Positions 922-56,827 of a stretch of 64,000 nt of DNA are shown here, one piece after another (the stretch's first letter is position 1; each line of letters begins with the position of its first letter). The notes beneath the pieces were generated by a model. The model had not been told where the DNA came from. It saw only the letters and a program-made list of their open reading frames with translations, and did not search any database. The stretch covers positions 193,029-257,028 of the forward strand of contig CAVXQJ010000016.1 in the NCBI GenBank assembly GCA_963763745.1, in the 5' to 3' direction. A program made the translations under genes and the position numbers. This DNA is from an uncultured delta proteobacterium (GTDB taxonomy: Bacteria > Myxococcota_A > Polyangia > Polyangiales > Polyangiaceae).

Positions 922-3566
<2,645 letters not shown>

Positions 3567-5191: not shown

Positions 5192-5228
5192 CAGCGCAGC
5201 GACGTTGATTTAGGTTGCCCGCACCCGG

Positions 5229-6498
5229 ATGCGGAAAACCCTCGGTCTCGCGCTCGCGCTCGCTCTTCTCTCGTGCTCGAACTCGAAGGCGACGAAGCCG
5301 ACCGTGGAGGCCGCGACGACGACGCCGCCCGTCGCGAGCTCCGCCGCGCAAGTCGAAGTGGACGCTTCGGCCGTCGTGGACGCCGCGCCGCCACCCGAGG
5401 TGCTCGCGGGCGGCGGATTTCGCGGCCCAAGCGAAGTCGCTCTTTCGCATCGCCGCATGCGGTGACGCGACGTCGCCAGTTCCCGAAGCGTTCGAAGCTC
5501 CCGTCGTCGACGGCCACTGCAAAGAGATGGCGTCGATGATTGCAGAATACAAGAAGTCGTGGTGCGACGTCGCGATGCCGTTCATCGCGAAGCTCGTCCC
5601 CGCCACCGCGCCGAAGACCGTCGTCTATCCGTTCGGCGGCGGCGATCTGCTCGGCGAGCTCGCGACGTATCCGAACGCGACCGAGGTGACGACGATCTCG
5701 CTCGAGATCGCCGCGGACGTTCGCAAGGTCGACGTGATCCCGAAGGGTCGTCTCCAACCCGAGCTCGCGCGCTATCGGATCGTCCTCGGCAAGCTCTTCG
5801 AAAAAGCCCACTCGCGCACCGACAACCTCGACATCGGATCGAAGAGCGTCTTGCCCGGCGAGATCGTCTTCGATCTCGTCGCGATGGTCGTGCATGGCTT
5901 CGAGCCCACGAGCCTGCGCTACTTCAAATTCAACGACGACGGCACGCTCCACTACTTCGAGCAATCCGAGATCGACGCAGCAGACGCCGCGGTGAAGGCC
6001 GGAAGAAAGACGCGCGCGGAGATCGACGACGCCTTCTTCTCGAACATGGAGCTTCGCTTCCGCAAAGTCGGAACGACCGAGACGCGCATCCTCCGGCATG
6101 TCGCGTTCAACCTCGACGACAACCACATGAAGGCGAACCCGCGCCTCGAAAAATATTTGAACGCGCGCGGCCCGAAGATCTCGCCGATGACGAAAGCCGC
6201 GAGCCACCTCCTCTGGTCGGACGATTTCTCGATCATCCGCAACTACCTCGCGACGCACATGGACTGGATGATCTCCGACTCGACCGGCTTCACGCCCGCG
6301 TACGCGAAGAAGATGGGATTCGTCCAAGACACGTACGGCACGTACACGTGGCCCGAGCCGTTCGGCACCGTCGACGTGAAGAACGCGACCGACTTGAACA
6401 AGCTCTTCGCGTCGAACCCGCACACGGACATCACGTTCCGCTACGGCTACCCCGACAAAGATCACCACGGCCACATCGTCGTCACGCGCAAGCCATGA
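5229..6498 (+). pseudogene. Lipoprotein with an apparent frameshift near 5400-5410 (sequencing error or authentic)
   Basis: The signal/lipobox ORF (MRKTLGLALALALLSCSNS, 5229..5465) runs into the protein-like tail of ORF 5215..6498 (…[17 protein letters not shown]…VVTRKP) in another frame. The stop overlaps the thyA start (ATGA). Confidence 0.5.
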
Positions 6499-7349
6499 AG
6501 CCGTATCTCGATCTTCTTCGTCGTGTGATGGACGAAGGAACGGATCGTCCCGACCGCACCGGCACGGGAACGCGCAGCGTGTTCGGGCACCAGATGCGAT
6601 TCGATCTCGCCGAGTCGTTTCCGCTCGTGACGACGAAGAAGGTTCACCTCCGTTCGATCCTCCACGAGCTTTTGTGGTTTTTGCGCGGAGAAACCCGCGT
6701 CGAATCCTTGCAGAATGCAAAGGTTTCGATTTGGGACGAGTGGGCGACCGCGGAGCAAACGGCGCGCTTCGGTCGCAAAGCGGGCGACCTCGGCCCCGTG
6801 TACGGACACCAGTGGCGGAACTTCGGCGCAACGCCGCGCGCGGATGGAACGTGGGAGAGCGACGGCGTCGATCAGATCGAGCGCTTGCTCGTCGACCTCC
6901 GCGAGAAACCATTCTCGCGCCGTCACATCGTCACCGGATGGAACCCGAAGGAAGCGGACCAAGTCGCGCTCCCGCCGTGCCACACGCTCTTCCAATTTTA
7001 CGTCATGGAGAAGAACGGCACGTGCTCGCTGTCATGCCATCTCTATCAACGAAGCGGCGACGTCTTCCTCGGCGTGCCGTTCAACATCGCGAGCTACGCG
7101 CTCCTCACGATGATGATCGCGCAAGTGAGCGGCATGCGGCCCGGCGAATTCGTTCACTCGTTCGGCGACGCGCACCTCTACTCGAACCACTTCGACCAAG
7201 CGCGCCTCCAGCTCTCGCGCGAGCCGCGCAAATCGCCCGTGATGCGCATCAACCCCGACGTGAAGGATCTCTTCGCATTCAAATTCGAAGACTTCACGCT
7301 CGAAGGTTACGACGCGCATCCCGCGATCAGCGCGCCGGTCGCAGTGTGA
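6495..7349 (+). CDS. thyA: Thymidylate synthase
   Basis: [31 protein letters not shown]…[11 protein letters not shown]… is a classic ThyA sequence. Confidence 0.95.
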
Positions 7350-7354
7350 TAGTC

Positions 7355-7766
7355 GGGCTTTGGGCTTTGGGCCTTGGGCTTTGGGAAGAATGAGTCGCGA
7401 TCATTCGAAACTCAAAGTGTTTGCGATGGCGGACGAGTTGGTCGTCGCGGTGTACGCCGCGACTTCGGCGTTTCCGAAACACGAACAGTTCGGGTTGGTA
7501 TCGCAACTTCGTCGCGCCGCCGTTTCGATTCCGACAAACATCGTCGAAGGTTGCGCCCGCCAGACAACACGCGATTACGTGCATTTTCTGATCATCGCAC
7601 TCGGTAGCGCGGCGGAGCTTCGATATTTGCTCGACCTCAGTCATCGACTCGGCTTCATGCCGTCGCATGCGCCGCTGGATGCAGCTTGCGAAGCCTTATC
7701 GCGGTCGCTCAACCGGCTCATCGCCGCTCTTCAAACCCAAAGCCCAAAGCCCAAAGCCTGAAGCCC
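7355..7766. mobile_element. Cassette flanked by inverted heptamer repeats, carrying a four-helix-bundle gene, inserted between thyA and folA
   Basis: Left arm 7355-7385 is (GGGCTTT)4GGG. Right arm 7732-7766 is (AAAGCCC)n, its inverted complement. The cassette fills the whole thyA-folA intergenic space. Confidence 0.6.
7390..7761 (+). CDS. Four-helix-bundle protein (23S rRNA intervening-sequence protein family, Avd-like)
   Basis: MSRDHSKLKVFAMADELVVAVYAATSAFPKHEQFGLVSQLRRAAVSIPTNIVEG… matches the family signature. RBS GGGAAG lies upstream. The 3' end (QSPKPKA*) is encoded by the right repeat arm. Confidence 0.85.
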   Translation: MSRDHSKLKVFAMADELVVAVYAATSAFPKHEQFGLVSQLRRAAVSIPTNIVEGCARQTTRDYVHFLIIALGSAAELRYLLDLSHRLGFMPSHAPLDAACEALSRSLNRLIAALQTQSPKPKA

Positions 7767-8249
7767 ATGCTCCGTCCGCTCTGCCTCGTCTTCGCCATGT
7801 CCGACGCGCGCGTCATTGGCAAAGACAACGGTCTTCCGTGGAGCATTCCGGAGGATCTCAAGCACTTCAAGAACGTGACCGTCGGGCACGCGGTGATCTC
7901 CGGACGAAAGACGTATGACTCCGTCGGGAGGCCGCTCCCGAGTCGGCGCAACATCATCGTCACGCGCGACGCCACCTTGAAGCGCGAAGGCGCCGAGGTC
8001 GCGCCGACGCTCGAAGCGGCGCTCGCGCTCGCGTATCAGACGGATGAAGAGCCGCGCGTGCTCGGCGGCTCGGAGATCTTCGCGCTCGCTCTCCCGATCG
8101 CGACGAAGATGATCGTCACGTTCGTTCACCGCGACGTCGAAGGCGACGTGCGCTTTCCGGAGATCGATTGGTCCGCGTGGCGCGAAGTTTCGCGACGCAA
8201 GGCGACGACCGAGCCCGACGTCGAGTTCGTCGAGTACGCGCGCGAGTAA
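7767..8249 (+). CDS. folA: Dihydrofolate reductase
   Basis: MLRPLCLVFAMSDARVIGKDNGLPWSIPEDLKHFKNVTVGHAVISGRKTYDS… is a canonical DHFR N-terminus. ATG at 7767 immediately follows the cassette. Confidence 0.9.
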   Translation: MLRPLCLVFAMSDARVIGKDNGLPWSIPEDLKHFKNVTVGHAVISGRKTYDSVGRPLPSRRNIIVTRDATLKREGAEVAPTLEAALALAYQTDEEPRVLGGSEIFALALPIATKMIVTFVHRDVEGDVRFPEIDWSAWREVSRRKATTEPDVEFVEYARE

Positions 8250-9383
8250 CTACTTCGGAATCGTCGGGACGGCCGACGTGAGGAACGTGAGCGTTCCGCC
8301 GAGCGACGACGGAGGTGTGATCGTCGTCGTGGGTGTCCACCCGCCATCCGCGGCTGCCGAGAAGCGATCGATCGCGCCACCATCGCCGACCAAGTGCGCG
8401 ACGGCGAACATCTCGAGGTTGTCCGGGCTGAGCGCGACCGAAATCGGATCCGTCGCGCTGATGGTGTCGACGAGCGTGAGATCGTCGTTCGACGCAATCT
8501 TGAGGTGATAAACGGCCGTCGGCCCGCTCCCGCTGCGCGGATCGCCCACGTACAGCTCCGATCCGAAGCGCGTCATCAGGTGAAGGCGATCGGCGGTCGC
8601 GATGGTGACCGACGGCGTCACCTCGCTGCCGCTCGGCAACGCGAACTGGCGGATGACGTTTCCGCCCGTGTAGGGAGATCCCGAAGAGACGTATAAACGC
8701 TTTCCGTCGGGCGCCACCGCGAGACCGATCGTCGTCGAGCCCGTGATGGTGAGCACGCCGTCCGATGTCGCGTTGCCTTTGGAGTCGATCGCGAATTTCG
8801 AGATGCTTCCTTGGCCCGCGATTTGGCTGACGTTGGCGGCGTAGAGCTCGTCTTCGGAAGGATCGAAGACGACTTGCCCGACGGCCCCGAGCCCGTTGCC
8901 GCTGATCTCGCCGTTCGCGGCGAAGGTCTGCGTGTTGGCGTCGTAGGTGAATCGCGAAATCGTTCCGCCGGACGTGGGCGGGGCATTGCCCCATCGATTG
9001 CCGACGAAGACCTCCGCCGACTTGTTGCAGAAGGCCAACCCGAGTGGATCGTGCACGAGAGACTTGTCGATCGCCGTGACCTGCGTCGCGGGGCCGTTGT
9101 CGTGATCGATGTTGTAGCGAAGGATGCCACCCCAATCGCTTTGCGCGGGAGATCCGCCGGGCGTCTCCGTGACGAGAATGAAGAAGCTCGTCGACGCTGC
9201 GTCGGCTGCGTCCCCGAACGACGCATCGTCGAAGGTCGGGACGGAAGCGTCCGCGTCGGGCGCGCTGGTATCGGCGACGTCCGCGTCGTTCGTGGGGTTG
9301 GGGATGAAGCCACCCTTGTCCGCCGCGCACGCAGTAACCCCGAAGATGCCAAGCCCGAGCAAGCAACAAACGGTCGACTTCAT
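8250..9383 (-). CDS. Lipoprotein, beta-propeller-like, hypothetical
   Basis: Real part of ORF 8250..9785 beginning MKSTVCCLLGLGIFGVTACAADKG (lipobox). Gly/Ser/Thr-rich repeats suggest a beta-propeller. Confidence 0.7.
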   Translation of the reverse strand: MKSTVCCLLGLGIFGVTACAADKGGFIPNPTNDADVADTSAPDADASVPTFDDASFGDAADAASTSFFILVTETPGGSPAQSDWGGILRYNIDHDNGPATQVTAIDKSLVHDPLGLAFCNKSAEVFVGNRWGNAPPTSGGTISRFTYDANTQTFAANGEISGNGLGAVGQVVFDPSEDELYAANVSQIAGQGSISKFAIDSKGNATSDGVLTITGSTTIGLAVAPDGKRLYVSSGSPYTGGNVIRQFALPSGSEVTPSVTIATADRLHLMTRFGSELYVGDPRSGSGPTAVYHLKIASNDDLTLVDTISATDPISVALSPDNLEMFAVAHLVGDGGAIDRFSAAADGGWTPTTTITPPSSLGGTLTFLTSAVPTIPK

Positions 9384-14457: not shown

Positions 14458-14580
14458 TCGCGTGAGCGATCTTCCCGACCGTACGCGTGAAGCGCTCGAA
14501 AGCGCACGCAAGAAGAAGGTGAGCTACGCCGTTCGCCTCGTTCGCGCCCGATGGCCGCACCGTCGCGGTCGAGGCGAAAC
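14458..14580 (+). pseudogene. Truncated duplicate of the TraB/GumN-family gene 5' end (about 88% identical to 16047-16170)
   Basis: gtgagcgatcttcccgaccgtacgcgtgaagcgctcgaaagcgcacgcaagaagaaggtgagctacgccgttcgcctcgttcgcgc… versus 16047…. It encodes VSDLPDRTREALESARKKKVSYAVRLVRA and then breaks off after a 2-bp deletion. Confidence 0.5.
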
Positions 14581-16046: not shown

Positions 16047-16798
16047 TCTTCGTGAGTGATCTTCCCAACCGTGCGCGTGAAGCGCTCGAACGCGCACGCA
16101 AGAAGAAGGCGAGCTACGCCGTTCGCCTCGTCCGCGCGCCCGATGGCCGCATCGTCGCGGTCCTCGGCGAAGCGCACATGAAGCTCGCCGAGGCGGCCGC
16201 GATCGGACGCGCCGTCGTCGAGGCGTTCGAGCTGCGCGGCGTCGAGACGTTCCAGCGCAAACAGGTCTTTCTCGGCCGCACGCTCGGCGTTCTCATCCAC
16301 GCGCCGCGCGTTCTTCTGCGCATCCTCTCGTTCGGCAAGATCCAAGGAAGCACCATCACCGAAGCGAAGCAGCTTCCGTCCGGATACACGGTGGAGCTCG
16401 AGCGAACCAAGCGCGTCCCGTTCGGTCTTCACGTGACGTCGCTCTACATGACCGTGTTCTTCATCTTCGCGTTCCTCGGTCTGCTCCTGCCGCTGATCGC
16501 GCCGGTGCTGCCGTGGCTCGCCGCGTTCGTCATGACCGTGCTGTTCGCGTTTCAAGCGCACATGATCCTGCTCGTGCCCGCGATCCTTCTTCGCCGGTTC
16601 TCGTGGAGCTGGATGATCCATCCGTTCATGGGGATCCTCACGCTGCGCGACGAGCTCATGGCCGCCGGCACGGTGGAGATGCTCGCCGATCACAAACGCG
16701 AGAAAGCGGCGGTCGTCGTCATGGGGCGCGCACACGTGAGCGGCTACACGCGACTTCTCGTCGACAAATACGGATTCACCGCAATAGAAGAGCCCTAG
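16047..16798 (+). CDS. TraB/GumN-family protein (membrane)
   Basis: N-terminal SYAVRLVRAPDGRIVAVLGEAHM and C-terminal AVVVMGRAHVSGYTRLL are TraB-family signatures, with internal TM helices. The GTG start is homologous to the 14458 fragment. Confidence 0.75.
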
Positions 16799-32838: not shown

Positions 32839-33639
32839 TCACGCCGCGGCTTTGAGCTCCGAGCTGCGAATCTCCGTGTAGACGGGCGGCGCATCGAGGT
32901 CGAGGCGCGCGCGAACTTCTTCGACCGGCAGCGCGAGCATCGATTCCCAATCTTGCTCGGGGAGCCACTGCGCTTTGCGACCGCGACGGAAGCCGTCGAC
33001 GATCGTCTTTCGCGCGGCCGCACCGCCGAGCTCCGCGGTGATCGTCTTGCTGAGACCGATGGCGATGATCAAACCGATTGCGGGGTTCTACGTTTGCGCG
33101 AACGTGAACGCGAGCAGCGCCGTCTCGCCGAGCACGTCGCCGGAATATCCGACGGCCGCGTGCCAGAGATCGTGCGTGTCGCGCATGCGCGCGTGGACCC
33201 AATCGAGCGGGGCGGGGAGGAGCTCCGCTTCCTGGCGGAATCCTTTTTTCTGCGCGTCGCGAATGCCTTCAGCGGAGATGTTCTCGCGCTCGACGAACGC
33301 GAGATACGCGCGGCCGAGCGATCCCTCGGGCAAGCGCGCGAGCGCTTTGCGATCGGCGAGCACGGAGACGATGTCGGCGCGGGCAGCCAGCATCTTTTTT
33401 CCGGATGCGCTCTTTTGAAGCCGTTCACCGATGCGCTCGAGCGTGTTGCCGCTCAGCGATTCGATGATGGTGAAGACCTGCGGCAAATCGTCGGGGTCGG
33501 CGGCAAGGATACGTGCGGCGCGAAGGGCCCGTTTGGGCTCGAATTGAATCGTGCGAACAGCACGATTCGATGACTCTTGCTGGGAAGCGCGGCGCCCGCC
33601 GCGCGTTCCCATTTGTACGTGGCTCATGCCCAAGAACAA
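32839..33639 (-). pseudogene. Coq4-family protein (HDxxH-x11-E zinc motif) interrupted by an in-frame TAG at 33088-33090
   Basis: ORFs 33088..33639 (…RMRDTHDLWHAAVGYSGDVLGET…) and 32839..33072 are in the same frame and contiguous except for one TAG (…FAQT*NPAIGLIIAIG…). Confidence 0.75.
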
Positions 33640-33702
33640 TGGACGCTACCTACAGGATTGTCAATAGCTGCTGACAGGTTTGTTCGTAGGCGGCGATGTG
33701 CG

Positions 33703-34341
33703 ATGCTGGCGTCCATGGCCGCGCGTGGGAAAACGAAGCCGCGCCGGCGGCTCGACGCCGAAACGGCGCGGAAGTTGATTTTGGACGCCACGGAAGCGCG
33801 CCTCGTTCGCGTCGGGCCCGCCGGCATTCGGCTGCAAGAGGTCGCGGCGGACGCGGGCGTGTCGCACCCGACCGTGCTGCATCATTTCGGGAGCCGCGAG
33901 CTCCTCGTGAAGGCAGCGTGCTCGCGCGCGTTTCAGGAGATCAACGCGACGCTCGTCGAGTCGATCATGTCGTCGGCGGGCGACGAAGTGCGCCTCGAGG
34001 CGATGCTCGAGAACGTCGCCACGGCGCTCGCGAAAGCGGGGCACGCGCGCGTCGTCATGTGGCTCGCGCTCGAAGGGTTTCGAATCGACGACGCAGAGAA
34101 CGGTCTCTCGAACGTCGTCGACGCGACGCACGCGCTCCGCCTCGCGCGTCACACGCGCGGAAAAAAACCAACGCGCGAAGACACGGCCCACACGGTCGTC
34201 CTCGCGACGCTCGCGCTCGTCGGCGGCGCGGTCCTCGGCACGACGCTGCTCGACAACGCGGGCCTCCCCTCGAGCGACCGCGCGATGAGCGAGTTCCGCA
34301 AATGGCTGTTTCGGGTGCTCATCGAGCACCTCGATGGGTGA
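33703..34341 (+). CDS. TetR-family transcriptional regulator
   Basis: N-terminal HTH (ARKLILDATEARLVRVGPAGIRLQEVAADAGVSHPTVLHHFGSRELL). Confidence 0.8.
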   Translation: MLASMAARGKTKPRRRLDAETARKLILDATEARLVRVGPAGIRLQEVAADAGVSHPTVLHHFGSRELLVKAACSRAFQEINATLVESIMSSAGDEVRLEAMLENVATALAKAGHARVVMWLALEGFRIDDAENGLSNVVDATHALRLARHTRGKKPTREDTAHTVVLATLALVGGAVLGTTLLDNAGLPSSDRAMSEFRKWLFRVLIEHLDG

Positions 34342-34347
34342 GGAGAA

Positions 34348-34445
34348 GGCTGCGGGCTGCGGGCTGCGGGCTACGGGCTTCGGGAAGAATGAAATCTCGA
34401 TCCTTCTTGCTCTTCCCGCGGCCCGCAGCCCGTAGCCCGCAGCCC
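34348..34445. repeat. Gene-less copy of the inverted-heptamer cassette (98-bp hairpin) between two convergent stop codons
   Basis: (GGGCTGC)3GGGCTACGGGCTTCGGG, then AAGAATGAAATCTCGATCCTTC, then the inverted arm CCCGCAGCCCGTAGCCCGCAGCCC. The loop keeps the GGGAAGAATGA…TCGCGATC start region seen at 7380-7400. Confidence 0.6.
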
Positions 34446-35839
34446 TATCTCAATTTGTCTATCGCCTCCTGCACCGTGCGCTCGAAGCCCGGTTTCTTCT
34501 GGGCGTCGGGCAGTGAGCGGTAGAGCGCGAGCTGCGCTTCGAGGGCGGCGCGGGCTTCGGGGCGCTTGCCCATCGCCATCAAGATGTCCGCTTTGAGGCG
34601 GTACATGAGGCCTTTGCGCGCGCCGTAGCCTTTGGCTATCGCGCGATCGATCGCGGCGAGCGCCTCTGCGTTTTTTCCGAGCTTGAAGTACACGTGCGCG
34701 AGGCGGTGCGCGGGGTTGTAGTCGTTCGGTAGCGCCTTCTCTTGCGCCTCGAGGAACTGCGCGGCCTCCGCGCCACGACCGAGGAACTCGAGCGTCTCCA
34801 TGCGCGCGCCGTCGAACGTCGTCGCGATCTCCGGGTCGGGACGCGCGGCGACGGCCTTCATGATGACGGCGAGTCGCGAGCGCGCGGCGTCTTGCGCGCC
34901 CTTGTGATCGCCGAGCATCTCGAGCGCTTCCCACACGACGTGAAATCCGTCGGCGCGATCGTCGGGCGAGAGGAGCGCGTTCGTGTCGCTGCACGCTTGC
35001 GCGACGCGCGGCGCGATCGCCGAGCGAATCTTCTTCACGCGCGCGGCGTCGTGGCTCTGCTCGGTGCAGTCGAGCGCGATCGAAGAAAAATCGATCATCA
35101 CGGACGACTCGCCGAGCGTGCCGAGATATTTCTCCGCCGTGTCGAGGCAGCGCGCGTCGTGCTTTTGCGCGCTGATCAATCCGAGCGCGGCTTCCGGCAA
35201 GTGATCCCAATTCGCGGGCGCCGCGGCGAGCGCGCGTGCGAATTGTTTCTCCGCTTCGGCGTAGTCGCTCTTCAGCACCGCGCGGTGACCCGCGAGGAGC
35301 AGCGCGCGCGGATTGTTCGCATCGAGCGAGCCCGCGTGTGCCTGCTCGATGGAGCGCGTCGCGTCCGTCAGGAACGCGCGCATCTGTTGAACGCTGCCCG
35401 CGCCTTCCCATCTTCCGTGAACGGATCCATCGCTCGGATCGACGACGAAGAACGTGGGCAGCACGTGCGTCGGAAACGCGGCGGACGCGGCGGCGTTCTG
35501 CTCTTTCTCGATGTCGAACGAGAAACGCACGAACGACTGCGGGAGCGACGCGTCCTCGAGCACGAACGTCCGCATCGCCTTGCACGTGTGACACCACACC
35601 GCCGACGCATCGACGAAGAGCGGCGCGTTCGCTTTCTTCGCGGTCGCGACGGCGCGCGCGTAGTCGTCCTCAATCCAATCGCGCGGAATCGGGATGGGCG
35701 CAGAGGCGGACGCAGACGCCGACGGAGTCAGAGACGGAGTCGGGGACGGGGACTGGGACGGAGTCGGAGTCGGGGACGGAGTCGGCGTTTGCGTGCCGCC
35801 GCACGCGACGAGAAAGAGAAAGACGAGCCGGCGCGACAT
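34445..35839 (-). CDS. Thioredoxin-like (WCxxC) TPR-repeat lipoprotein
   Basis: MSRRLVFLFLVACGG (lipobox), a Pro/Thr/Ser linker, a WCHTCK thioredoxin-fold motif and C-terminal TPR-like repeats. Confidence 0.8.
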   Translation of the reverse strand: MSRRLVFLFLVACGGTQTPTPSPTPTPSQSPSPTPSLTPSASASASAPIPIPRDWIEDDYARAVATAKKANAPLFVDASAVWCHTCKAMRTFVLEDASLPQSFVRFSFDIEKEQNAAASAAFPTHVLPTFFVVDPSDGSVHGRWEGAGSVQQMRAFLTDATRSIEQAHAGSLDANNPRALLLAGHRAVLKSDYAEAEKQFARALAAAPANWDHLPEAALGLISAQKHDARCLDTAEKYLGTLGESSVMIDFSSIALDCTEQSHDAARVKKIRSAIAPRVAQACSDTNALLSPDDRADGFHVVWEALEMLGDHKGAQDAARSRLAVIMKAVAARPDPEIATTFDGARMETLEFLGRGAEAAQFLEAQEKALPNDYNPAHRLAHVYFKLGKNAEALAAIDRAIAKGYGARKGLMYRLKADILMAMGKRPEARAALEAQLALYRSLPDAQKKPGFERTVQEAIDKLR

Positions 35840-48022: not shown

Positions 48023-48805
48023 CTAGTCCTCGAGACCCGAGAACGCGCGGAGCGCGCGTGCATCCGCGGTGCGCTCGCCGGCCGCGTCGCGCAACATCAT
48101 CGACGACACCGCGAGCGCGCTCGGCGTGCGCGCGAGCGTCCACACCGAGAAAAGCGGTGGCTCGTGCTCGCGCGGGATCACCTCGCATCGCGCGCGCACG
48201 AAGAGCTTCGCGCTCGAGGCCGCGGTCTCGACGCGCGCGTTCGCGAGCGCCGCGCCGCACATCACGACGATTCCGTCACCCGCCAAGACGCGGCTCGCCG
48301 TCTCGACGTAGGCCTCGACGCCGCCGCGGTACTCGATGCGCGCGTAAGCGCGCTGCTCGTCCATCGCGTCGGACGCCGCGCCCGGCGGAAAGTACGGCGG
48401 TGTTCCCGTCACGAGATCGAAATCGCGCCCGAGCTTCTCGATCGCGTCTCGCTCGCGCAGATCCCCGTGATGAATCGCGACGCGTTGCGCGACGCCCGCG
48501 CGTGCGACGTTGCGCCGAAGCAGCTCGAACGACATCTCCTGCGCCTCGATCCCGACGAAGTTCGCGTCGGTCATCTTCCACGCGAGGTGAAGCAGCACCG
48601 ACCCGAGCCCGCACCCGAGATCGAGGACGCGCTTCGCGGAGGGCCGCGCGTGCCACGCAATGAACGCCGTTGCGAGATCGTCCGACGAAAACCGATGCCC
48701 CTTGGCGCGCTGATACACGCGAAAATCGCGGGTGAGCGCGTCGTCGGTGAGCGGGCCGAGGATCGGATCGGAGAGCGGATTCACGCTGTGCGTTCCATAA
48801 CGCAT
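48023..48805 (-). CDS. SAM-dependent methyltransferase (N6-adenine/TrmN6-like, TPPYF motif)
   Basis: DLGCGLGSVLL (motif I) and TGTPPYF (motif IV). Confidence 0.85.
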   Translation of the reverse strand: MRYGTHSVNPLSDPILGPLTDDALTRDFRVYQRAKGHRFSSDDLATAFIAWHARPSAKRVLDLGCGLGSVLLHLAWKMTDANFVGIEAQEMSFELLRRNVARAGVAQRVAIHHGDLRERDAIEKLGRDFDLVTGTPPYFPPGAASDAMDEQRAYARIEYRGGVEAYVETASRVLAGDGIVVMCGAALANARVETAASSAKLFVRARCEVIPREHEPPLFSVWTLARTPSALAVSSMMLRDAAGERTADARALRAFSGLED

Positions 48806-48849
48806 AAAGCAGCATTCACTTCAACGGATCGAGTCTTGATAGGTCGTGG
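48806..48849 (-). promoter_or_regulatory. Conserved leader motif, copy 1, immediately upstream of the methyltransferase start codon
   Basis: taaagcagcattcacttcaacggatcgagtcttgat… is about 87% identical to 52385-52430. Both are in the same orientation relative to the downstream gene. Confidence 0.4.
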
Positions 48850-52384: not shown

Positions 52385-52430
52385 CTAAAGCAGCATTCAC
52401 TTGAACGGATCGAGTGTTGACGCGTCGCGG
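52385..52430 (-). promoter_or_regulatory. Conserved leader motif, copy 2, upstream of gpsA
   Basis: ctaaagcagcattcacttgaacggatcgagtgttgacgcgtcgcgg matches 48806-48849. Confidence 0.4.
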
Positions 52431-55180
52431 TGCACGGTCGGGATCGTGAAGAAGAAAGACGCTCCTTTGCCCGGCACGCTCTCCACCCAAATGCGACCGC
52501 CGTGAGCTTCGATGACTCCTTTCGCGATCGGGAGACCGAGGCCGGCGCCGTGTCTATGCGCCTTCGTGCCCTGCCAGAATCTCTCGAACACGTGCGGGAG
52601 CTCCTCCTCGGGGATCCCGGCGCCGCTGTCTTTCACCCAGAAGAGCACCTCGCTTTCGCGCGGCGCCGCGCCGACTTCGATGCGCGCGCCTGGCTCGCTG
52701 AACTTGAGCGCGTTGCCGATCAGATTTTCGAAAACCTGAAGCAGGCGATCGCGATCCGCGAAGACGTCGGGTAGCTCGCTCGTGACGTCGAGCCGAAGCT
52801 CGACGGTGGAAGACGCCGCGAGCTGCTTCTGCGCGTCGACGGATGACGCGACGATCTCTCGCGCGGCAACGCGCGCGGGCTCGACGGACAAGCGGCCCGC
52901 ATCCATGCGCGTCACGTCGAGCAGATCTTGAATGAGCCGATTCATGCGTTTGGCCGATCGCTCGATCACTTCGGCGGGCGTGTGTCCGGGCTCCGCTGCG
53001 ATGCCGCGCCGGAGAAGGTTGGCGTGCAGGATGATGTTGTTGAGCGGGTTGCGAAGATCGTGAGCGACGACGCCGAGGACGTTGTCGCGCGCCTGCGCCG
53101 CGCGCTTCGCTGCGCGATAGAGGCGTGCGTTGTCGATCGAAAGCGCCGCGCGCCGAGCGAGCTCCTCGGCCAAGCGAACATCCGCTGCGCCATACACGCG
53201 AGAAGGCGTCGAGGATATGAACGTGATCGCCCCCAAGAGCTTCTCGTTCGACACGAGCGGCACCGCCACCATCGACCGAATCTCGGCAGCGCGAAGGGCT
53301 CGTAAGTGCTCTTCGCTCTGAGCAAACGATGCGACCTCTTGCTCCGTCGGACGTTCCATGAGGAGCGACTGCCGAGTCTCGAAGACGGGGCGCACCAAGT
53401 AAGGACCGTTTCGGTCGAGCGGAAGGTGCGTCAGGAGATCGCAAAGCCACGCCTTCGATGGATCACGGGCCACGACTTTGAGCGGTCTGACCTCTTCGTC
53501 GTCGAGGACGACTTCGACGATGCAGAGGTCGGCGAGATCGCGCACCGCAAGCTCGGCGATCCTCGTGAGGGTTGCTTCGAAAGCGAGCGTGCTCGCAAGG
53601 ACCGGCCCGACGTCGGCCAAGAACTTCTGCTCCTTCTCGAGTCGGTTCTGCTCCGTGACGTCGCGAAGGTCGACCGTGAGGACTTTCTTGCCGCCCACGT
53701 CGAGCATGGAGATCGCGGCATCGGCGGGGAACTCCTCGCCGCCTTTTCGCAGACCGATGATCGTCGAGTGCCGTTCGCCCATGCGGCGCGCGTGCTGCCG
53801 GCCGGACGCGAAACGAGCCACGTGCTCGCGATGGACGGCTCGAAACCGCTCGGGAACGAGCATGTCGAGCGACGCTCCGATCGCTTCGGCTTGCGTGTAA
53901 CCGAAGATCTTCTCGGCACCCGTGTTGAACAGCGTGATGCGTTGGTCCTCGTCGACGGAGATGATCGCGTCGGCGGAGATGGAGAGAATGCCCGACGACT
54001 TCGCTTCGGCGAGGCGGAGCTCTTCTTCGAGCCGCTTTCGCTCCGTGATGTCTTCCATCTCGGAAATGAAGTAGCGCGGCACGCCGTCGTGACCGCGAAG
54101 AGTCGAGACGCTGAGCATCACGTCGACGATCGTTCCGTCCTTGCGGATGTAGCGCTTGCTCCGCTGGTAGCGTGGGATCTCGTCGCGCGCGAGCTGCATC
54201 GACATCGCGACATCGGCGGCTACGTCATCCGGATGCGTGATCGCTTGGAACGTGAGCGCCATGAGCTCGTCCGCCGTGTAGCCGAGGATCTCGCAGAGCG
54301 CGCGATTGACGCGAACGAAGCGGCCGTCGAGCGCGACGAGCGCCATCCCGATCGGCGCCTCGTCGATCGTGAGCCGGAAGCGCTCCTCGGACTCCTCGCG
54401 CTCGCGAGCGATGCGTCGCGGCTCGGTGATGTCGCGCGTGATCGTCCCCATCCCGAGCACGCGACCGCTCTCGGGATCGCGAATCATGAAGTGGTCGTCG
54501 GAGACGGGGATGGCTTCCTCCGTTTTCCAATTTCTGAAATAGGTCTCGCCCGACCATTGTCCACGCTCCAACATCGCCTTGACGATCACGTCCGCCGCGA
54601 ACGCGCGCTCGCTCGGCGGGTAGTAGTCGGGGATTTGCGTCTTTTCGATCGGATAGTCCGCTGATAACCCCACCATGCGGCGACCGCCCGCGTTGATGTA
54701 AACCGGTTTTCCGTTCGGGTCGGCGATGCCGATGAAGTCGGAGGAGTTGTCGAGCAGCGCCGTGAAGATCTTCTTCTCGTCCGCAGCGCGCTTGATCGCC
54801 GAGACGTCGGCGACATGGACGAAGAACCCATGAACCACGCCATCCACGACATCGGGGATGTACGTCGCAAGGCTGTGTCGCGAGGGGCCGCCGGCTGGAT
54901 CGGGGATCTCGCGTTCGAATTCTTGCGCATGACCGCGCAAGGCTTGCTCGATGTGGGGGAGGTTGAGCCGATACAGCGCGGGCCCGAGCAGCTCGCTGAT
55001 GTGCTTGCCGAGCAGCGCATCGGGAGACACGCCGAACCACACTTCGTATGCACGGTTTGCGAACCGGCAATGTTGCGTGGAATCCCAGTACGCGACCATT
55101 GCGGGAAGCGAGTCGACGAGCCGATTCAGCAACTCGTTTTCAGCGATCACCGCTGAGATCGAAGCACGCTGCGTGCCCAC
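52397..55180 (-). CDS. Multi-PAS/GAF sensor histidine kinase
   Basis: Several PAS repeats, a GAF-like region, then H-box HDLRNPLNNI and HATPase (GAGLGLPIAKG). The N-terminal part of the listed ORF is artefact. Start is at about 55180 (GTG) or 55099 (ATG). Confidence 0.85.
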   Translation of the reverse strand: MGTQRASISAVIAENELLNRLVDSLPAMVAYWDSTQHCRFANRAYEVWFGVSPDALLGKHISELLGPALYRLNLPHIEQALRGHAQEFEREIPDPAGGPSRHSLATYIPDVVDGVVHGFFVHVADVSAIKRAADEKKIFTALLDNSSDFIGIADPNGKPVYINAGGRRMVGLSADYPIEKTQIPDYYPPSERAFAADVIVKAMLERGQWSGETYFRNWKTEEAIPVSDDHFMIRDPESGRVLGMGTITRDITEPRRIAREREESEERFRLTIDEAPIGMALVALDGRFVRVNRALCEILGYTADELMALTFQAITHPDDVAADVAMSMQLARDEIPRYQRSKRYIRKDGTIVDVMLSVSTLRGHDGVPRYFISEMEDITERKRLEEELRLAEAKSSGILSISADAIISVDEDQRITLFNTGAEKIFGYTQAEAIGASLDMLVPERFRAVHREHVARFASGRQHARRMGERHSTIIGLRKGGEEFPADAAISMLDVGGKKVLTVDLRDVTEQNRLEKEQKFLADVGPVLASTLAFEATLTRIAELAVRDLADLCIVEVVLDDEEVRPLKVVARDPSKAWLCDLLTHLPLDRNGPYLVRPVFETRQSLLMERPTEQEVASFAQSEEHLRALRAAEIRSMVAVPLVSNEKLLGAITFISSTPSRVYGAADVRLAEELARRAALSIDNARLYRAAKRAAQARDNVLGVVAHDLRNPLNNIILHANLLRRGIAAEPGHTPAEVIERSAKRMNRLIQDLLDVTRMDAGRLSVEPARVAAREIVASSVDAQKQLAASSTVELRLDVTSELPDVFADRDRLLQVFENLIGNALKFSEPGARIEVGAAPRESEVLFWVKDSGAGIPEEELPHVFERFWQGTKAHRHGAGLGLPIAKGVIEAHGGRIWVESVPGKGASFFFTIPTVHRDASTLDPFK

Positions 55181-55240
55181 CCGTGTCGCAGCGTTTGCGT
55201 AAGGACCGGCGGCACATTCGATGCGTGGTTCGAATTCGAA

Positions 55241-56827
55241 ATGAACCACCAGCGCGTTCTCGTCGTCGAAGACGACGCGGATCTTCGGACGAGCGTCACG
55301 CAGCTCTTGTCCGCGGATGGGATGGACATGGTCCAGGCGGGGTCGGGAAAAGAAGCGCTCGCCACGTTGCTTTCGAACGCATTCGATCTGGTCGTCACCG
55401 ACGTGATGATGCCTCCTCCGCTCGGCGTCGAGGTCGCAGCGCTCGCGCGCACCGCCGGCGATGGCGTTCCGATCCTCGTGATGACGGGCCTGCGCGACGA
55501 GTGGGTGACGGACGCGGTCGGCAAGCTGCAGCGCGCCGATCTGTTGCACAAACCGTTTTCTGCCGACGAGCTCCTCGCGCACGTGCACGCGCTGCTCGAA
55601 CGCAAGCAAGTGGACGAGGCCGCGGCTTCCGAGCGCCAAGTCGGGCTCGCACGCGCGACGACCAGCGGTGCACACGTGTTTCCTCCAGCGATCGTGCCCA
55701 TCCTCCGCGAGAGATTCGCGGACGACATTCCATGCATCAGCGGCGTCGATGACGTCGTGCTCGCGGAGCTGCTCTCGGTCGTGTTCTTCGCGGGGCTCGT
55801 CGCCGAAGAAGGCGAGCACAAACCGGTGCGGGTCGTCTTCGTCGGCACGGCGCCGTCCGTCGTCGACGAGGAGACGTCGTCTCCGCTCTATCGTTGGAGC
55901 ACGCTTCGATTCCGCGTCGCTCGTCCGTTCTCCGTTGGAGAGCTCGTCAAGCTCGCGACTGCGACGGGCAGCGAGCGTGTCTTCACGCAGGTTTGCTACG
56001 ACGGCGACGACCTCGTCGTCACGGGTCTCGCGCGCGAAGGGATCAACGTCGAAGGCGATGCGTTTCTCAAGGTCGTGGTCCCGCAGCCAGGCGCTCTATC
56101 CATCCGCGTCGGACGACGGCACTTGCTCGAGTACGAGCACGGTCACGTGCAGGCGCCGAGCGGAGACGTCGTCTTCTCGCAAGGGCCCGTGCGAAGAGCG
56201 CTCGAGGAAGTGGCCGTCGCGGTCGGCGTGGAGAACGCGGTCGATGCATACTTGGACGCCGTGCGCGCGCTCGTCGGCGAGATGACGGGCCACGGCGCGG
56301 GCGGCATCATGGTGTTCACGCCCGACCCGCAATCCGTCCTGCCGACCGACGCGCCGTACTTGACGTTTCCCGAGGTGTCGCTCGCCGCGATCATCCAACG
56401 CCTCCACACGCAAGTCGATCACGTCATGCGCGTCACGTTCTTCGCCGAGCTCGAGCGCACGATCGAAGAGCTCGGCGCGCTCTCGGCGCTCGATGAAGCC
56501 GTGGTGTTCGATCGCTCGCTCGCCGTCGAAGGATTCGGCGTCGTCTTGCCCATCCAAAGCCACGAGCCGCTCGTCATCTTCGAGGCACACGACGCCGAGG
56601 CTCACGACGTGCGGCCGTTCGACATCGGCACGCGCGGAGCGCGGCATCGCGCTGCGGCAACGTACGCGATGAATCACCCGCGCACCGTCGTGTTCGTCGC
56701 ATCGGAGGACGGGCCCGTCGGGTGTTTCTTCCGCGCGCCGGGTTGGAAGCACGTCATCCTCTGGCCGTTCCACGCGATGGACGCGCGTCATTCCCAACGC
56801 ATGACGGCGTTCATTCCGCGACTCTGA
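55241..56827 (+). CDS. Response regulator with receiver domain plus a ~400-aa uncharacterized C-terminal domain
   Basis: MNHQRVLVVEDDADLR…LVVTDVMMP… is a REC domain. The remainder is protein-like but unrecognized. Divergent from the PAS kinase. Confidence 0.8.
   Translation: MNHQRVLVVEDDADLRTSVTQLLSADGMDMVQAGSGKEALATLLSNAFDLVVTDVMMPPPLGVEVAALARTAGDGVPILVMTGLRDEWVTDAVGKLQRADLLHKPFSADELLAHVHALLERKQVDEAAASERQVGLARATTSGAHVFPPAIVPILRERFADDIPCISGVDDVVLAELLSVVFFAGLVAEEGEHKPVRVVFVGTAPSVVDEETSSPLYRWSTLRFRVARPFSVGELVKLATATGSERVFTQVCYDGDDLVVTGLAREGINVEGDAFLKVVVPQPGALSIRVGRRHLLEYEHGHVQAPSGDVVFSQGPVRRALEEVAVAVGVENAVDAYLDAVRALVGEMTGHGAGGIMVFTPDPQSVLPTDAPYLTFPEVSLAAIIQRLHTQVDHVMRVTFFAELERTIEELGALSALDEAVVFDRSLAVEGFGVVLPIQSHEPLVIFEAHDAEAHDVRPFDIGTRGARHRAAATYAMNHPRTVVFVASEDGPVGCFFRAPGWKHVILWPFHAMDARHSQRMTAFIPRL

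What the first reader, a model, noticed from the sequence alone, without database searches (positions are those of the whole stretch)
7350..7770. Four-helix-bundle (23S rRNA IVS / Avd-like) gene in a cassette with inverted heptamer-repeat arms, inserted between thyA and folA
The thyA stop is at 7349 and the folA ATG is at 7767. The whole 412-bp gap is one element.

The left arm is (GGGCTTT)4GGG. It is followed by the RBS-like GGGAAG and the ATG of a 123-aa four-helix-bundle protein. The right arm is the inverted complement (AAAGCCC)n. The right arm also encodes the protein's last residues (QSPKPKA) and its stop.

The arms could pair into a stem about 30 bp long that encloses the gene. Members of this protein family sit inside rRNA intervening sequences and serve as DGR accessory (Avd) proteins. 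Here the gene looks like cargo of a small hairpin-ended insertion that split a conserved thyA-folA operon without destroying either gene.
Basis: seen in the sequence. Interest (0 to 1): 0.7.

Follow-up and report, generated by a model that had tools for sequence, protein, structure and literature searches.

The report
Heptamer-hairpin gene cassette splitting thyA-folA
A 412-bp insertion carrying one small four-helix-bundle gene between two mirror-image runs of 7-base repeats sits exactly between the thyA and folA genes; it belongs to a very widespread but barely described family of hairpin-ended elements, the same kind as the "intervening sequences" found in some ribosomal RNA genes.

Summary
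The thyA stop is at 7347-7349 and the folA ATG at 7767. Between them lies a 412-bp element (7355-7766) with three parts:
- a left arm, GGGCTTT GGGCTTT GGGCCTT GGGCTTT GGG;
- a 123-aa PF05635/TIGR02436 four-helix-bundle ORF (7390-7761);
- a right arm that is the inverted complement of the left (28/31 Watson-Crick, 30/31 counting G·U, -59 kcal/mol).

Five related Polyangiaceae-like genomes have thyA and folA overlapping or at most 10 nt apart, so this is a precise insertion with no target duplication.

A second copy without an ORF (34348-34445) lies in the same window. It keeps the same inner junctions.

Inverted tandem-repeat arms flank 59 of 73 homologous genes from many phyla, against 5 of 216 control intervals. 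The period is 7 in 82 of 111 arrays. The repeat units share an RGCT core and change together with the protein.

The Xanthomonas XCC0516 gene (PDB 2GSC) sits the same way between accB and accC, inside the published but unexplained GGGAATC repeats. The Coxiella 23S IVS has the same design.

No DGR, reverse transcriptase or transposase is present.

Best reading: an IVS-type selfish hairpin cassette that is co-transcribed with the operon. RNase III processing, binding of the repeats by the protein, and the way the element moves are all inferred, not shown.

The parts
6555..7349 (+). thyA (thymidylate synthase), the upstream host gene; stop TGA at 7347-7349
   Evidence: PF00303 E 7e-108 over 264 aa. 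Relatives have the same 3' end.
7350..7354 (+). The retained 5-nt thyA-folA spacer, TAGTC, outside the element
   Evidence: The empty site in L093 has a 5-nt spacer, GCACG, between TGA and ATG.
7355..7766 (+). The whole inserted element (412 bp): left arm, ORF, right arm
   Evidence: It is absent from five related thyA-folA junctions. ORF GC3 is 0.64 against 0.81-0.85 in the neighbouring genes.
7355..7385 (+). Left arm: 4.4 tandem heptamers, GGGCTTT GGGCTTT GGGCCTT GGGCTTT GGG
   Evidence: TRF period 7, 4.4 copies.
7383..7388 (+). Shine-Dalgarno-like GGGAAG. It overlaps the inner end of the left arm and would be partly sequestered in the stem.
   Evidence: Sequence. The same GGGAAGAATGA junction is present in the ORF-less copy.
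7390..7761 (+). 123-aa four-helix-bundle protein of the PF05635 / TIGR02436 family (S23p, '23S rRNA IVS protein'); pI 9.4
   Evidence: Closest solved structure is XCC0516, 2GSC, E 3e-21. pI.
7736..7766 (+). Right arm: inverted complement of the left arm. It encodes QSPKPKA and the stop, and ends flush with the folA ATG.
   Evidence: TRF reports 7732-7767, period 7.
7767..8249 (+). folA (dihydrofolate reductase), the downstream host gene
   Evidence: PF00186 E 3e-51. A 100% identical protein, P0121, comes from a 607-kb contig.
34348..34445 (.). Second member of the family, without an ORF (98 bp): (GGCTGCG)n left arm at 34348-34384, a 30-nt remnant, and a (CCCGCAG)n right arm at 34415-34445. It lies between the convergent genes 33577-34341 (TetR family) and 34445-35839 (thioredoxin/TPR).
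   Evidence: It folds at -78 kcal/mol. It shares GGGAAGAATGA..TC.CGATC and GCTCTTC with the main element. Neighbouring genes were identified.

Best explanation
This is a non-ribosomal copy of the 'intervening sequence' type of element. It is a 412-bp selfish cassette whose only gene is a PF05635 four-helix-bundle protein. Its two ends are inverted arrays of about 4.5 tandem heptamers.

**Shown**
- It inserted precisely between the 5-nt thyA-folA spacer and the folA ATG.
- It belongs to a cross-phylum family in which the ORF and its repeat arms are inherited together.
- ORF-less hairpin derivatives exist, one of them in this window.

**Inferred**
- The element has no promoter or terminator of its own and is transcribed as part of the thyA-folA mRNA.
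- In that RNA the arms pair into a stem of about 31 bp. The stem puts the thyA stop (5 nt before its base) and the folA AUG (0 nt after its base) back next to each other.
- The stem is the kind of substrate that RNase III cuts in the homologous 23S rRNA IVSs.
- A ribosome terminating on thyA would melt the base of the stem and expose the folA start. This would explain why such a tight junction tolerates the insert.
- The basic, presumably pentameric protein probably recognises the repeated RGCT-core heptamers. About 4-6 repeats per arm would match five subunits.

**Unknown**
- How the element moves. It encodes no recognisable transposase or reverse transcriptase.
For: **Insertion**
- Five of five relatives have thyA and folA overlapping or 3-10 nt apart.
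- ORF GC3 is 0.64 against 0.81-0.85 in the flanking genes.

**Family**
- Inverted arms score at least 14 in 59 of 73 homologue loci, against 5 of 216 control intervals (Fisher p 1e-41).
- The repeat period is 7 in 82 of 111 arrays and 8-10 in the rest. The median is 4.6 repeats per arm.
- The units share an N-N-R-G-C-T-T core: 4.66 bits, against 3.06±0.19 for shuffled units.
- The distance between repeat units falls as protein identity rises (Spearman -0.41).

**ORF-less derivatives**
- One lies at window 34348-34445 and shares the inner junctions of the main element.
- Others occur in L014, L031, L039, L043, L054, L074 and in 13 metagenome loci.

**Same design elsewhere**
- Xanthomonas: accB - [GGGAATC arms + XCC0516-type gene] - accC, with the accC ATG flush with the right arm.
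- Coxiella 23S IVS: a 28-bp terminal stem, (GACAGAT)3-4 heptamers before the S23p ATG, and excision by RNase III shown experimentally (PMC4990558).

**Co-transcription and tight fit**
- No promoter-like or terminator-like site lies inside the element.
- Where both neighbours point the same way, the ORF has their orientation in 39 cases and the opposite in 12 (p 2e-4).
- The left arm starts within ±10 nt of the upstream stop in about 30 of 55 loci.
- The downstream start codon lies 0-19 nt after the right arm in 20 of 32 loci.

**Stem and protein**
- The arms form a -59 kcal/mol duplex and the fold z-score is -8.1.
- The protein has pI 9.4.
Against: **Untested or unresolved steps**
- RNase III cleavage, protein-repeat binding and ribosome unmasking were not tested here.
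- Mismatches within 64 stems do not clearly favour sense-RNA wobble pairs: 88 G:U-type against 67 A:C-type (p 0.11). RNA-level and DNA-level function therefore cannot be told apart.
- The stems are only about 84% complementary, and variant positions in the two arms do not compensate each other.

**The reverse association is weak**
- Among 120 metagenome loci holding (GGGCTNN)≥3.7 arrays, only 3 carry a PF05635 ORF. About 97 are solo arrays with no inverted partner.
- Heptamer arrays are thus much more common than the gene and may have other origins.

**No direct proof of mobility**
- No two near-identical copies at different sites were found, so active transposition is not demonstrated.
- No target-site duplication is present.
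- The whole source genome could not be inspected.

**Other limits**
- The orientation and distance statistics rest on crude ORF calls.
- In Coxiella, S23p appears not to be translated (PMC4990558).
Confidence: 0.6

Rival explanations
1. A DNA-level transposon, autonomous or MITE-like. The inverted heptamer arrays are terminal inverted repeats recognised in DNA by an enzyme encoded elsewhere. Candidates are a hairpin-binding transposase or a reverse-transcriptase or recombination route. The four-helix-bundle protein would be an accessory end-binding factor or a passenger. Any RNA stem would be incidental.
For: - The element has TIR architecture, and ORF-less derivatives outnumber ORF-bearing copies.
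- Repeat units look genome-specific. The window has GGGCTTT and GGGCTGC; two copies in MAG CAVZMW01 share ACGGCTG at 72% protein identity. Xanthomonas has about 186 GGGAATC arrays, 70 of them in inverted pairs (PMC4692102).
- ORF and arms are co-inherited, including an 89%-identical pair assigned to different phyla.
- There is no significant excess of G:U over A:C mismatches in the stems.
Against: - No target-site duplication is present at the thyA|folA site.
- No transposase lies in or near the element.
- The ORF is biased toward the orientation of its neighbours, 39 against 12, which a purely DNA-level element would not need.
- The homologous rRNA IVSs are demonstrably processed as RNA (PMC4990558).
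- This reading is not exclusive of the best explanation.
Confidence: 0.25
2. A host-serving regulatory module rather than a selfish insert. Heptamer arrays placed at stop/start junctions would tune processing, stability or translation of the flanking cistrons. The PF05635 protein would be their dedicated repeat-binding regulator.
For: - The arrays abut stop and start codons. The folA and accC ATGs are flush with the right arm.
- Published work reports heptamer repeats that end 1 nt before start codons in Beggiatoaceae (PMC4679880). It also reports regulatory effects in Nostoc with an 'as yet unidentified interacting partner' (bioRxiv 10.1101/2022.06.06.494920).
Against: - Five of five close relatives do without the insert at this junction.
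- The ORF is compositionally foreign.
- The flanking genes differ between loci and are functionally unrelated: thyA/folA, accB/accC, ADH/SDR, cmr3/cmr2.
- Decayed ORF-less copies are common.
Confidence: 0.1
3. A G-quadruplex or simple-sequence-repeat element. The left arm, with GGG every 7 nt, would form a G4. The arrays would arise by polymerase slippage, and the gene would merely be nearby.
For: - The left arm has five GGG tracts separated by 4-nt loops.
- The Xanthomonas GGGAATC and Nostoc GGGGAYT repeats were shown or argued to form G4 structures (PMC4692102).
- Arrays vary in copy number, for example among Coxiella strains.
Against: - Many family members use units without G tracts, such as AAAGCTT, ACAGTTT, AGTTTTC and GTAAAAGACA. 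They keep the inverted arrangement around the same gene.
- Inverted pairing around the ORF is seen in 59 of 73 loci against 5 of 216 controls, which slippage alone does not explain.
Confidence: 0.04
4. A remnant or satellite of a diversity-generating retroelement, with the ORF acting as the Avd accessory protein.
For: PF05635 is homologous to Avd (PMC10053308). Some close homologues also hit PF22296, bAvd, weakly.
Against: - The Avd equivalog NF033474 scores 22.4 bits against a cut-off of 80.
- No reverse-transcriptase domain was found in the neighbours within about 6 kb.
- No convincing YxDD-type motif was found in any long frame of the 64-kb window.
- No adenine-specific template/variable repeat pair is present.
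- Empty-site comparisons show a solitary 412-bp insert.
Confidence: 0.01

Closest known systems
ORF-bearing 23S rRNA intervening sequences (Coxiella burnetii IVS with S23p; Leptospira IVS)
   Same: - Same protein family, PF05635/S23p.
- Same size class, about 0.4-0.7 kb.
- Terminal inverted repeats form a stem of about 28-31 bp that encloses the ORF.
- Tandem heptamers lie directly before the ATG. Coxiella has (GACAGAT)3-4, with copy number varying between strains.
- A weak A/G-rich Shine-Dalgarno lies at the stem. (PMC4990558.)
   Different: - The window's element lies in an mRNA, between two protein-coding genes, not in helix 25 or 45 of 23S rRNA.
- None of the 220 loci fetched here contains conserved 23S motifs.
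- RNase III excision is shown for the rRNA IVS and only inferred here.
Xanthomonas GGGAATC heptamer repeats (Rehm et al. 2015, PMC4692102) and the XCC0516 protein (PDB 2GSC)
   Same: - Period-7 intergenic arrays, with 70-75 inverted (convergent) pairs per genome.
- I found the XCC0516-type gene enclosed by inverted GGGAATC-type arrays between accB and accC. The accC ATG is flush with the right arm. This is the same layout as thyA-[element]-folA.
- XCC0516 is the closest solved structure to the window protein.
   Different: - The unit sequence differs (GGGAATC against GGGCTTT).
- The paper treats the repeats as G-quadruplex-forming simple repeats of unknown function. It does not mention the four-helix-bundle gene or mobility.
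Other bacterial heptamer repeat arrays (TAACTGA in Beggiatoaceae, cyanobacteria and Bacteroidetes; Nostoc heptamers; cyanobacterial STRR, the last from memory)
   Same: - Tandem 7-mers of 2-6 or more copies in intergenic regions.
- They often end at the start codon.
- Their function and binding partner are unknown (PMC4679880; bioRxiv 10.1101/2022.06.06.494920).
   Different: - They are mostly solo direct arrays, not inverted pairs.
- No link to PF05635 is reported.
- On cyanobacterial plasmids I saw one PF05635 gene with inverted arrays (Calothrix, L221) and one with non-complementary arrays (Nostoc, L220).
MITEs and REP/BIME-type extragenic palindromes
   Same: - Small inverted-repeat hairpins sit in intergenic spacers of operons.
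- ORF-less copies outnumber any autonomous copy.
- They lie directly after stop codons.
   Different: - The arms here are tandem heptamer arrays, not a unique TIR or palindrome.
- No target-site duplication is present.
- No transposase or RAYT is associated.
- The 'autonomous' form encodes only a 120-aa helical bundle.
DGR accessory protein Avd
   Same: A homologous four-helix-bundle fold. From memory, Avd is a basic pentamer that binds nucleic acid and the DGR reverse transcriptase.
   Different: - The protein is not an Avd equivalog (22 bits against a cut-off of 80).
- No reverse transcriptase, template repeat or variable repeat is present.

Membership tests
PF05635 / TIGR02436 four-helix-bundle protein (S23p, '23S rRNA IVS protein') | The profile HMM score is above the curated cut-off over the whole domain | tested here: met
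   PF05635 scores 108 bits against 33.8, covering profile positions 2-105 of 106. TIGR02436 scores 109 bits against 24.
PF05635 / TIGR02436 four-helix-bundle protein (S23p, '23S rRNA IVS protein') | The conserved motif GxxRxxxSxxxNxxE (quoted in PMC3936711) | tested here: met
   The sequence FGLVSQLRRAAVSIPTNIVEG contains G..(x)..R, S, N and E at the stated spacing.
PF05635 / TIGR02436 four-helix-bundle protein (S23p, '23S rRNA IVS protein') | Homopentameric toroid of four-helix bundles, as in XCC0516 | not testable with these tools
   Only sequence similarity to 2GSC was obtained (E 3e-21). The oligomeric state was not modelled.
Classical 23S rRNA intervening sequence (IVS) | Located within a 23S rRNA gene (helix 25 or 45) | tested here: not met
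   It lies between thyA and folA. There is no Rfam hit in 6500-8500. No 23S motif occurs in any fetched locus.
Classical 23S rRNA intervening sequence (IVS) | Complementary termini form a long stem that encloses the element | tested here: met
   31-nt arms with 30/31 positions paired, at -59 kcal/mol. The minimum-free-energy fold pairs the arms, with z -8.1.
Classical 23S rRNA intervening sequence (IVS) | Excised from the transcript by RNase III | not testable with these tools
   This needs RNA end-mapping in the organism or an in-vitro RNase III assay. It has been shown for Coxiella (PMC4990558).
Heptamer-armed PF05635 cassette (the family defined here) | A PF05635 ORF bracketed by inverted arrays of short tandem repeats (period 7, sometimes 8-10) | tested here: met
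   The window arms are period 7 with 4.4 and 5.3 copies. The family shows this in 59 of 73 loci against 5 of 216 controls.
Heptamer-armed PF05635 cassette (the family defined here) | The repeat unit carries the shared R-G-C-T core, reading inward | tested here: met
   GGGCTTT rotates to TGGGCTT / GGGGCTT-like units. Consensus.
DGR accessory protein Avd | Scores above the equivalog cut-off and sits next to a DGR reverse transcriptase and a TR/VR pair | tested here: not met
   NF033474 scores 22.4 bits against 80. No reverse transcriptase is among the neighbours or in a motif scan. No TR/VR-like repeat pair is present.
TIR transposon / MITE | Terminal inverted repeats | tested here: met
TIR transposon / MITE | Target-site duplication flanking the insert | tested here: not met
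   The flanks are TAGTC|...|ATGCT, with no duplication. The 5-nt spacer length equals that of the empty site in L093.
TIR transposon / MITE | Several copies in the same genome, with a transposase encoded by an autonomous copy | tested here: inconclusive
   Two related copies lie in 64 kb, one full and one ORF-less. No transposase was seen. The whole genome was not available: the source is absent from genome contigs and the P0121 look-up failed.

The most novel reading that the evidence does not exclude
PF05635 four-helix-bundle pentamers are the sequence-specific partners of bacterial heptamer-repeat arrays. Together they form one large class of mobile hairpin elements that has not been recognised as such. 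The class would have autonomous ORF-bearing copies and many ORF-less derivatives, and would move without a conventional transposase.

This single class would account for three separate puzzles:
- the 23S rRNA intervening sequences;
- the unexplained heptamer repeats of Xanthomonas, cyanobacteria and Beggiatoaceae;
- the scattered 'four helix bundle protein' genes found inside conserved operons and cas loci.

The elements would target or survive at stop/start junctions because their stem restores the original junction geometry in the RNA.
Probability: 0.3. Interest if true: 0.85.

Novelty: new variant of a known kind. Interest (0 to 1): 0.66.

Why it matters
Three long-standing observations have been treated separately:
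- the origin and meaning of 23S rRNA intervening sequences and their S23p ORF, known since about 1990;
- the over-representation of heptameric tandem repeats in bacterial intergenic DNA, such as Xanthomonas GGGAATC, cyanobacterial heptamers and TAACTGA;
- the function of the very large PF05635/TIGR02436 family, which has about 17,900 clusters at 50% identity and two crystal structures but no known role.

This locus is a clean, datable insertion into an essential two-gene operon. Together with the cross-phylum survey, it suggests that all three are facets of one element type.

It also provides a tractable test system: accB-XCC0516-accC in Xanthomonas, where the protein structure and transcriptomes already exist.

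On the practical side, such cassettes sit inside conserved operons and cas loci and have been read as functional partners of their neighbours (PMC3936711). They also break metagenome assemblies, since most contigs carrying the gene are under 2 kb.

Tried and rejected
**Ruled out**
- DGR context. The Avd equivalog model fails, and there is no reverse transcriptase and no TR/VR pair.
- Known RNA family. There is no Rfam match even at E≤1.
- Phage origin. tblastn found no match in 50,697 phage records.

**Inconclusive or uninformative**
- RNA-level against DNA-level selection, tested by counting G:U-type against A:C-type mismatches in 64 stems. The result was 88 against 67, p 0.11.
- Orientation of the upstream neighbour alone. 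62 of 80 are co-directional, which is not clearly above what is usual for bacterial gene pairs. Only the contrast within co-directional contexts is informative (39 against 12).

**Searches that failed or fell short**
- The source genome is not in genome contigs; the best match is 64% identical. The look-up of the 100%-identical FolA, P0121, returned nothing. A genome-wide census of (GGGCTNN)n pairs was therefore impossible.
- An exact-junction pattern, GGGCNNNGGGCTTNGGGAAGAATGA, had 0 hits in metagenomes.
- The context of P0005 came back without DNA.

**A result that cut against a simpler view**
- I tested the idea that every (GGGCTNN)n array marks a cassette. Only 3 of 120 arrays carry the gene and most are solo. 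This forced the weaker claim 'the gene nearly always has arms' rather than 'arms imply the gene'.

**Literature**
- Eight full-text searches found no paper that links PF05635 genes outside rRNA to heptamer arms.
- The library lacks most subscription journals, and Ralph & McClelland 1993 was not readable. Prior description cannot be excluded.

**Side observation set aside**
- L095 has a pair of PF05635-like genes flanked by hexamer arrays (GGGGAC/GGAGAC) in direct orientation. This is a different architecture and was not pursued.
Full report
**1. What is there**

Reading 7200-7900 gives the following layout.
- thyA ends with TGA at 7347-7349.
- A 5-nt spacer, TAGTC, follows.
- The left arm is 7355-7385: GGGCTTT GGGCTTT GGGCCTT GGGCTTT GGG.
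- AAGA follows, then an ATG at 7390.
- The ORF runs to the TGA at 7759-7761.
- The right arm is 7736-7766: CCC AAAGCCC AAAGCCC AAAGCCT GAAGCCC.
- The folA ATG at 7767 follows with no spacer.

Pfam confirms ThyA (PF00303) and FolA (PF00186). For the 123-aa ORF it gives PF05635, 23S_rRNA_IVP (E 3.5e-31). NCBIfam gives TIGR02436, 'four helix bundle protein'. The closest solved structure is XCC0516 of Xanthomonas campestris (2GSC, E 3e-21).

The arms are 28/31 Watson-Crick complementary. Two of the three exceptions are G·U pairs in the sense RNA, and the duplex energy is -59 kcal/mol. Folding 7340-7780 pairs arm with arm, with z = -8.1 against shuffles. The heptamer run is far beyond chance: 7 matches against 0.05 expected. 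The gap is 417 nt and the element is 412 bp.

**2. It is an insertion**

The FolA protein has a 100%-identical database entry from a 607-kb contig, and its nearest named relatives are Polyangiaceae MAGs. I fetched the thyA-folA junction of five relatives, with FolA 89, 84, 80, 78 and 77% identical. In all five the two genes either overlap (ATGA, or a 1-nt overlap) or are 3, 5 or 10 nt apart.

The alignment shows the window as ...GTGTGA TAGTC | 412 bp | ATGCTCCG..., against ...GTGTGA GCACG ATGCGTCCG... in L093. The inserted segment is therefore bounded exactly by the outer ends of the two arms. No bases were lost and there is no target-site duplication.

The ORF is compositionally foreign: GC3 is 0.64, against 0.81 for thyA and 0.85 for folA. 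No promoter-like or terminator-like site lies inside the element.

**3. It is not unique in the window**

TRF and a period-7 scan found a second inverted pair at 34348-34445. It consists of (GGCTGCG)n...GGGCTTCGGG, a 30-nt core and (CCCGCAG)n. It fills the gap between two convergent genes, a TetR-family gene ending at 34341 and a thioredoxin/TPR gene whose stop is at 34445-34447.

It has no ORF. It does keep GGGAAGAATGA..TC.CGATC after the left arm, which is the Shine-Dalgarno, ATG and first codons of the main element. It also keeps GCTCTTC before the right arm. It is an internal-deletion derivative of a sister cassette and folds at -78 kcal/mol.

**4. The architecture is general for this protein family**

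I fetched 80 genomic loci encoding homologues, 40-64% identical. They come from Acidobacteriota, Planctomycetota, Myxococcota, Bacteroidota, Omnitrophota and other phyla.
- Inverted arms score at least 14 in 59 of 73 usable loci, against 5 of 216 control intervals in the same loci (Fisher p about 1e-41).
- The arms are tandem arrays. The period is 7 in 82 of 111 arrays, 8 in 23, 9 in 4 and 10 in 2. The median is 4.6 repeats per arm.
- The unit differs from locus to locus: GGCTTGA, CAGTCCT, GGCCAGA, CGGCTGA, AAAGCTT, ACAGTTT and others.
- After rotation the units share a core, N-N-R-G-C-T-T: 4.66 bits, against 3.06±0.19 for shuffled units, with a maximum of 3.72 in 200 shuffles.
- Unit distance falls steadily as protein identity rises. 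It is 3.6 differences at 30-45% identity and 0.9 at 80% or more (Spearman -0.41). Arms and ORF are therefore inherited as one unit.
- One 89%-identical pair with the same 8-mer unit is assigned to different phyla. One of the two contigs is short and may be mis-binned.
- Element size has a median of 501 bp and a range of 401-718 bp.
- ORF-less hairpins with the same kind of arms occur elsewhere in these loci.
- None of the fetched loci contains universal 23S rRNA motifs. This clade lives outside rRNA.
- The protein family is large: 17,898 clusters at 50% identity with E≤1e-3.

**5. Placement**

Across the family the arms hug the neighbouring genes.
- The left arm begins within ±10 nt of the stop of an upstream same-strand ORF in about 30 of 55 loci.
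- The right arm ends within ±10 nt of the stop of a convergent gene in about 20 of 36 loci.
- A co-directional downstream start codon lies 0-19 nt after the right arm in 20 of 32 loci.
- Where both neighbours point the same way, the ORF shares their orientation in 39 cases and opposes it in 12 (p 2e-4).

These numbers rest on crude ORF calls. Calling errors should blur the signals rather than create them.

**6. Links to published systems**

(a) The Coxiella burnetii 23S IVS is a 428-nt element with a 28-bp terminal stem and an S23p ORF. It has three to four GACAGAT heptamers directly before the ATG, with copy number varying between strains. RNase III excises it, as shown in vitro with mapped ends. 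RNase III cleavage removes its Shine-Dalgarno, so the protein may not be made (PMC4990558).

(b) Rehm et al. described about 186 GGGAATC heptamer arrays in Xanthomonas campestris, 70 of them as convergent pairs. They gave no function and no link to mobile elements (PMC4692102). I looked up the XCC0516-type gene. It lies between accB and accC and is bracketed by inverted GGGAATC-type arrays. Its GTG start is inside the left arm, and the accC ATG is flush with the right arm. This is the same layout as thyA-[element]-folA.

(c) PF05635 genes have been reported inside cas operons, for example between cmr3 and cmr2, and were read there as functional partners (PMC3936711).

(d) Heptamer repeats that end at start codons, with an unknown binding partner, are reported in Beggiatoaceae, cyanobacteria and Bacteroidetes (PMC4679880; bioRxiv 10.1101/2022.06.06.494920).

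(e) Cyanobacterial plasmids carry such genes. A Calothrix copy has inverted TAGCTGT/AAAGCTA arrays. A Nostoc copy has arrays on both sides that are not complementary.

Eight full-text searches found no paper connecting the gene outside rRNA with heptamer arms. The library is incomplete.

**7. The reverse test, and its limit**

I started from the repeat instead of the gene and sampled 120 metagenome loci holding (GGGCTNN)≥3.7.
- Only 3 have a PF05635 ORF.
- 13 are ORF-less hairpins. All have the G-rich array 5' of the loop. One, L173, retains the AGTCGCGATC remnant of the ORF start.
- 9 are pairs 200-700 nt apart.
- About 97 have no inverted partner, 44 of them close to a contig end.

The gene almost always has arms, but arrays are far more common than the gene. 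This fits a few autonomous copies among many decayed or non-autonomous ones. It also leaves room for other origins of heptamer arrays.

**8. What it is not**

It is not a DGR component.
- The Avd equivalog model scores 22 bits against a cut-off of 80.
- Neighbours within about 6 kb are aconitase, unknowns, a lactonase-like protein and a Ser/Thr kinase, with no reverse transcriptase.
- No convincing YxDD-type motif appears in any long frame.
- The only long direct repeat, 87 nt at 14461/16051, differs at mixed bases rather than at adenines.

It matches no Rfam family, and there is no phage match.

**9. How it most likely works**

*Shown:* it is a precise insertion; ORF and arms are co-inherited; ORF-less derivatives exist; the architecture is the same as in rRNA IVSs and in the Xanthomonas accB-accC insert.

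*Inferred:*
- The element is transcribed as part of the thyA-folA mRNA.
- The arms pair into a stem of about 31 bp. It is long enough for RNase III (established requirement of about two helical turns; from general knowledge), as demonstrated for the homologous IVS.
- The thyA stop lies 5 nt before the base of the stem and the folA AUG 0 nt after it. Folding therefore restores the ancestral stop-5 nt-AUG geometry.
- A ribosome terminating on thyA would open the base of the stem, which is exactly the region upstream of the folA AUG. This would preserve coupling and would explain why inserts are found in such tiny spacers.
- The basic protein (pI 9.4) is homologous to a pentameric toroid. It plausibly reads the RGCT cores, with 4-6 repeats per arm matching five subunits.

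*Not resolved:*
- Whether the arms act as RNA or as DNA. G:U-type mismatches number 88 and A:C-type 67, p 0.11. Stems are about 84% complementary and show no compensatory changes.
- How the element moves. It has no transposase, no reverse transcriptase and no target-site duplication.

**10. Verdict**

The element is a new variant of a known kind: an IVS-type cassette in an mRNA rather than in rRNA. As far as I could find, the family-wide rule that emerges (PF05635 ORF plus inverted heptamer arrays plus ORF-less derivatives at stop/start junctions) has not been described. It ties together several unexplained phenomena and offers a tractable test system in Xanthomonas. Interest 0.66.

Noticed in passing
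window 14461-14547 and 16051-16137: An 87-nt direct repeat, 93% identical and 1590 nt apart. The differences are at mixed bases, not adenine-specific, so it is not a DGR TR/VR pair. It is probably a duplicated gene segment.
   Followed up: partly
window 48805-48849 and 52386-52430: A 45-nt direct repeat, 87% identical (TAAAGCAGCATTCACTTNAACGGATCGAGTNTTGA...). Each copy lies just beyond the upstream end (higher-coordinate side) of a minus-strand ORF (48023-48805 and 52397-55819). It could be a shared regulatory or leader sequence.
   Followed up: no
window 5215-6498: A 427-aa ORF with no Pfam hit lies directly upstream of thyA. A gene of 423-425 aa with no Pfam hit occupies the same position in all five relatives (L093, L095, L096, L222, L223). 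It appears to be a conserved unknown gene linked to thyA-folA.
   Followed up: no
L095 2487-3655 (relative with FolA 84% identical): A different composite lies just downstream of folA. Long hexamer arrays (GGGGAC/GGAGAC) in direct orientation sit on both sides. Two inverted modules of about 100 nt lie inside them, with two convergent PF05635-like genes of another subfamily (2844-3131 +, 3113-3430 -).
   Followed up: partly
protein P0414: A 2474-aa protein with 23 separate stretches matching the 123-aa query. It looks like a giant tandem array of PF05635-like segments.
   Followed up: no
L109 around 5653-5678; L185, L126: Heptamer arrays of different units occur side by side or nested. Examples are an outer (AAAGTCA)n/(TTTGACT)n inverted pair around an inner (GGGGCTA)n array, and (GGGGCTG)n followed by (GAACTGA)n. 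This suggests repeated insertion into, or next to, existing arrays.
   Followed up: no
L061 3426-3585; L078 3354-3532; L041 3451-3590; L057 3415-3542: Some right arms have expanded to 100-180 nt, in one case as three copies of a 45-nt higher-order unit. The arrays are prone to slippage and expansion.
   Followed up: no
one search hit table: Most contigs carrying close homologues of the gene are only 0.5-2 kb long. This fits assemblies breaking at the repeat arms or at multi-copy elements.
   Followed up: no
window 35721-35785: 12/24-nt tandem repeats (GACGGAGTCGGA) lie inside the minus-strand thioredoxin/TPR gene and encode a Thr/Pro/Ser-rich linker. They are unrelated to the heptamer elements.
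   Followed up: partly
L001 2925-2965 and 3395-3425: In the Polyangiaceae homologue locus the heptamer arms are extended outward. On each side there is a small self-complementary module (TTTCGCCC-loop-GGGCGAAA), and the two modules are reverse complements of each other. Some family members therefore have composite ends.
   Followed up: partly
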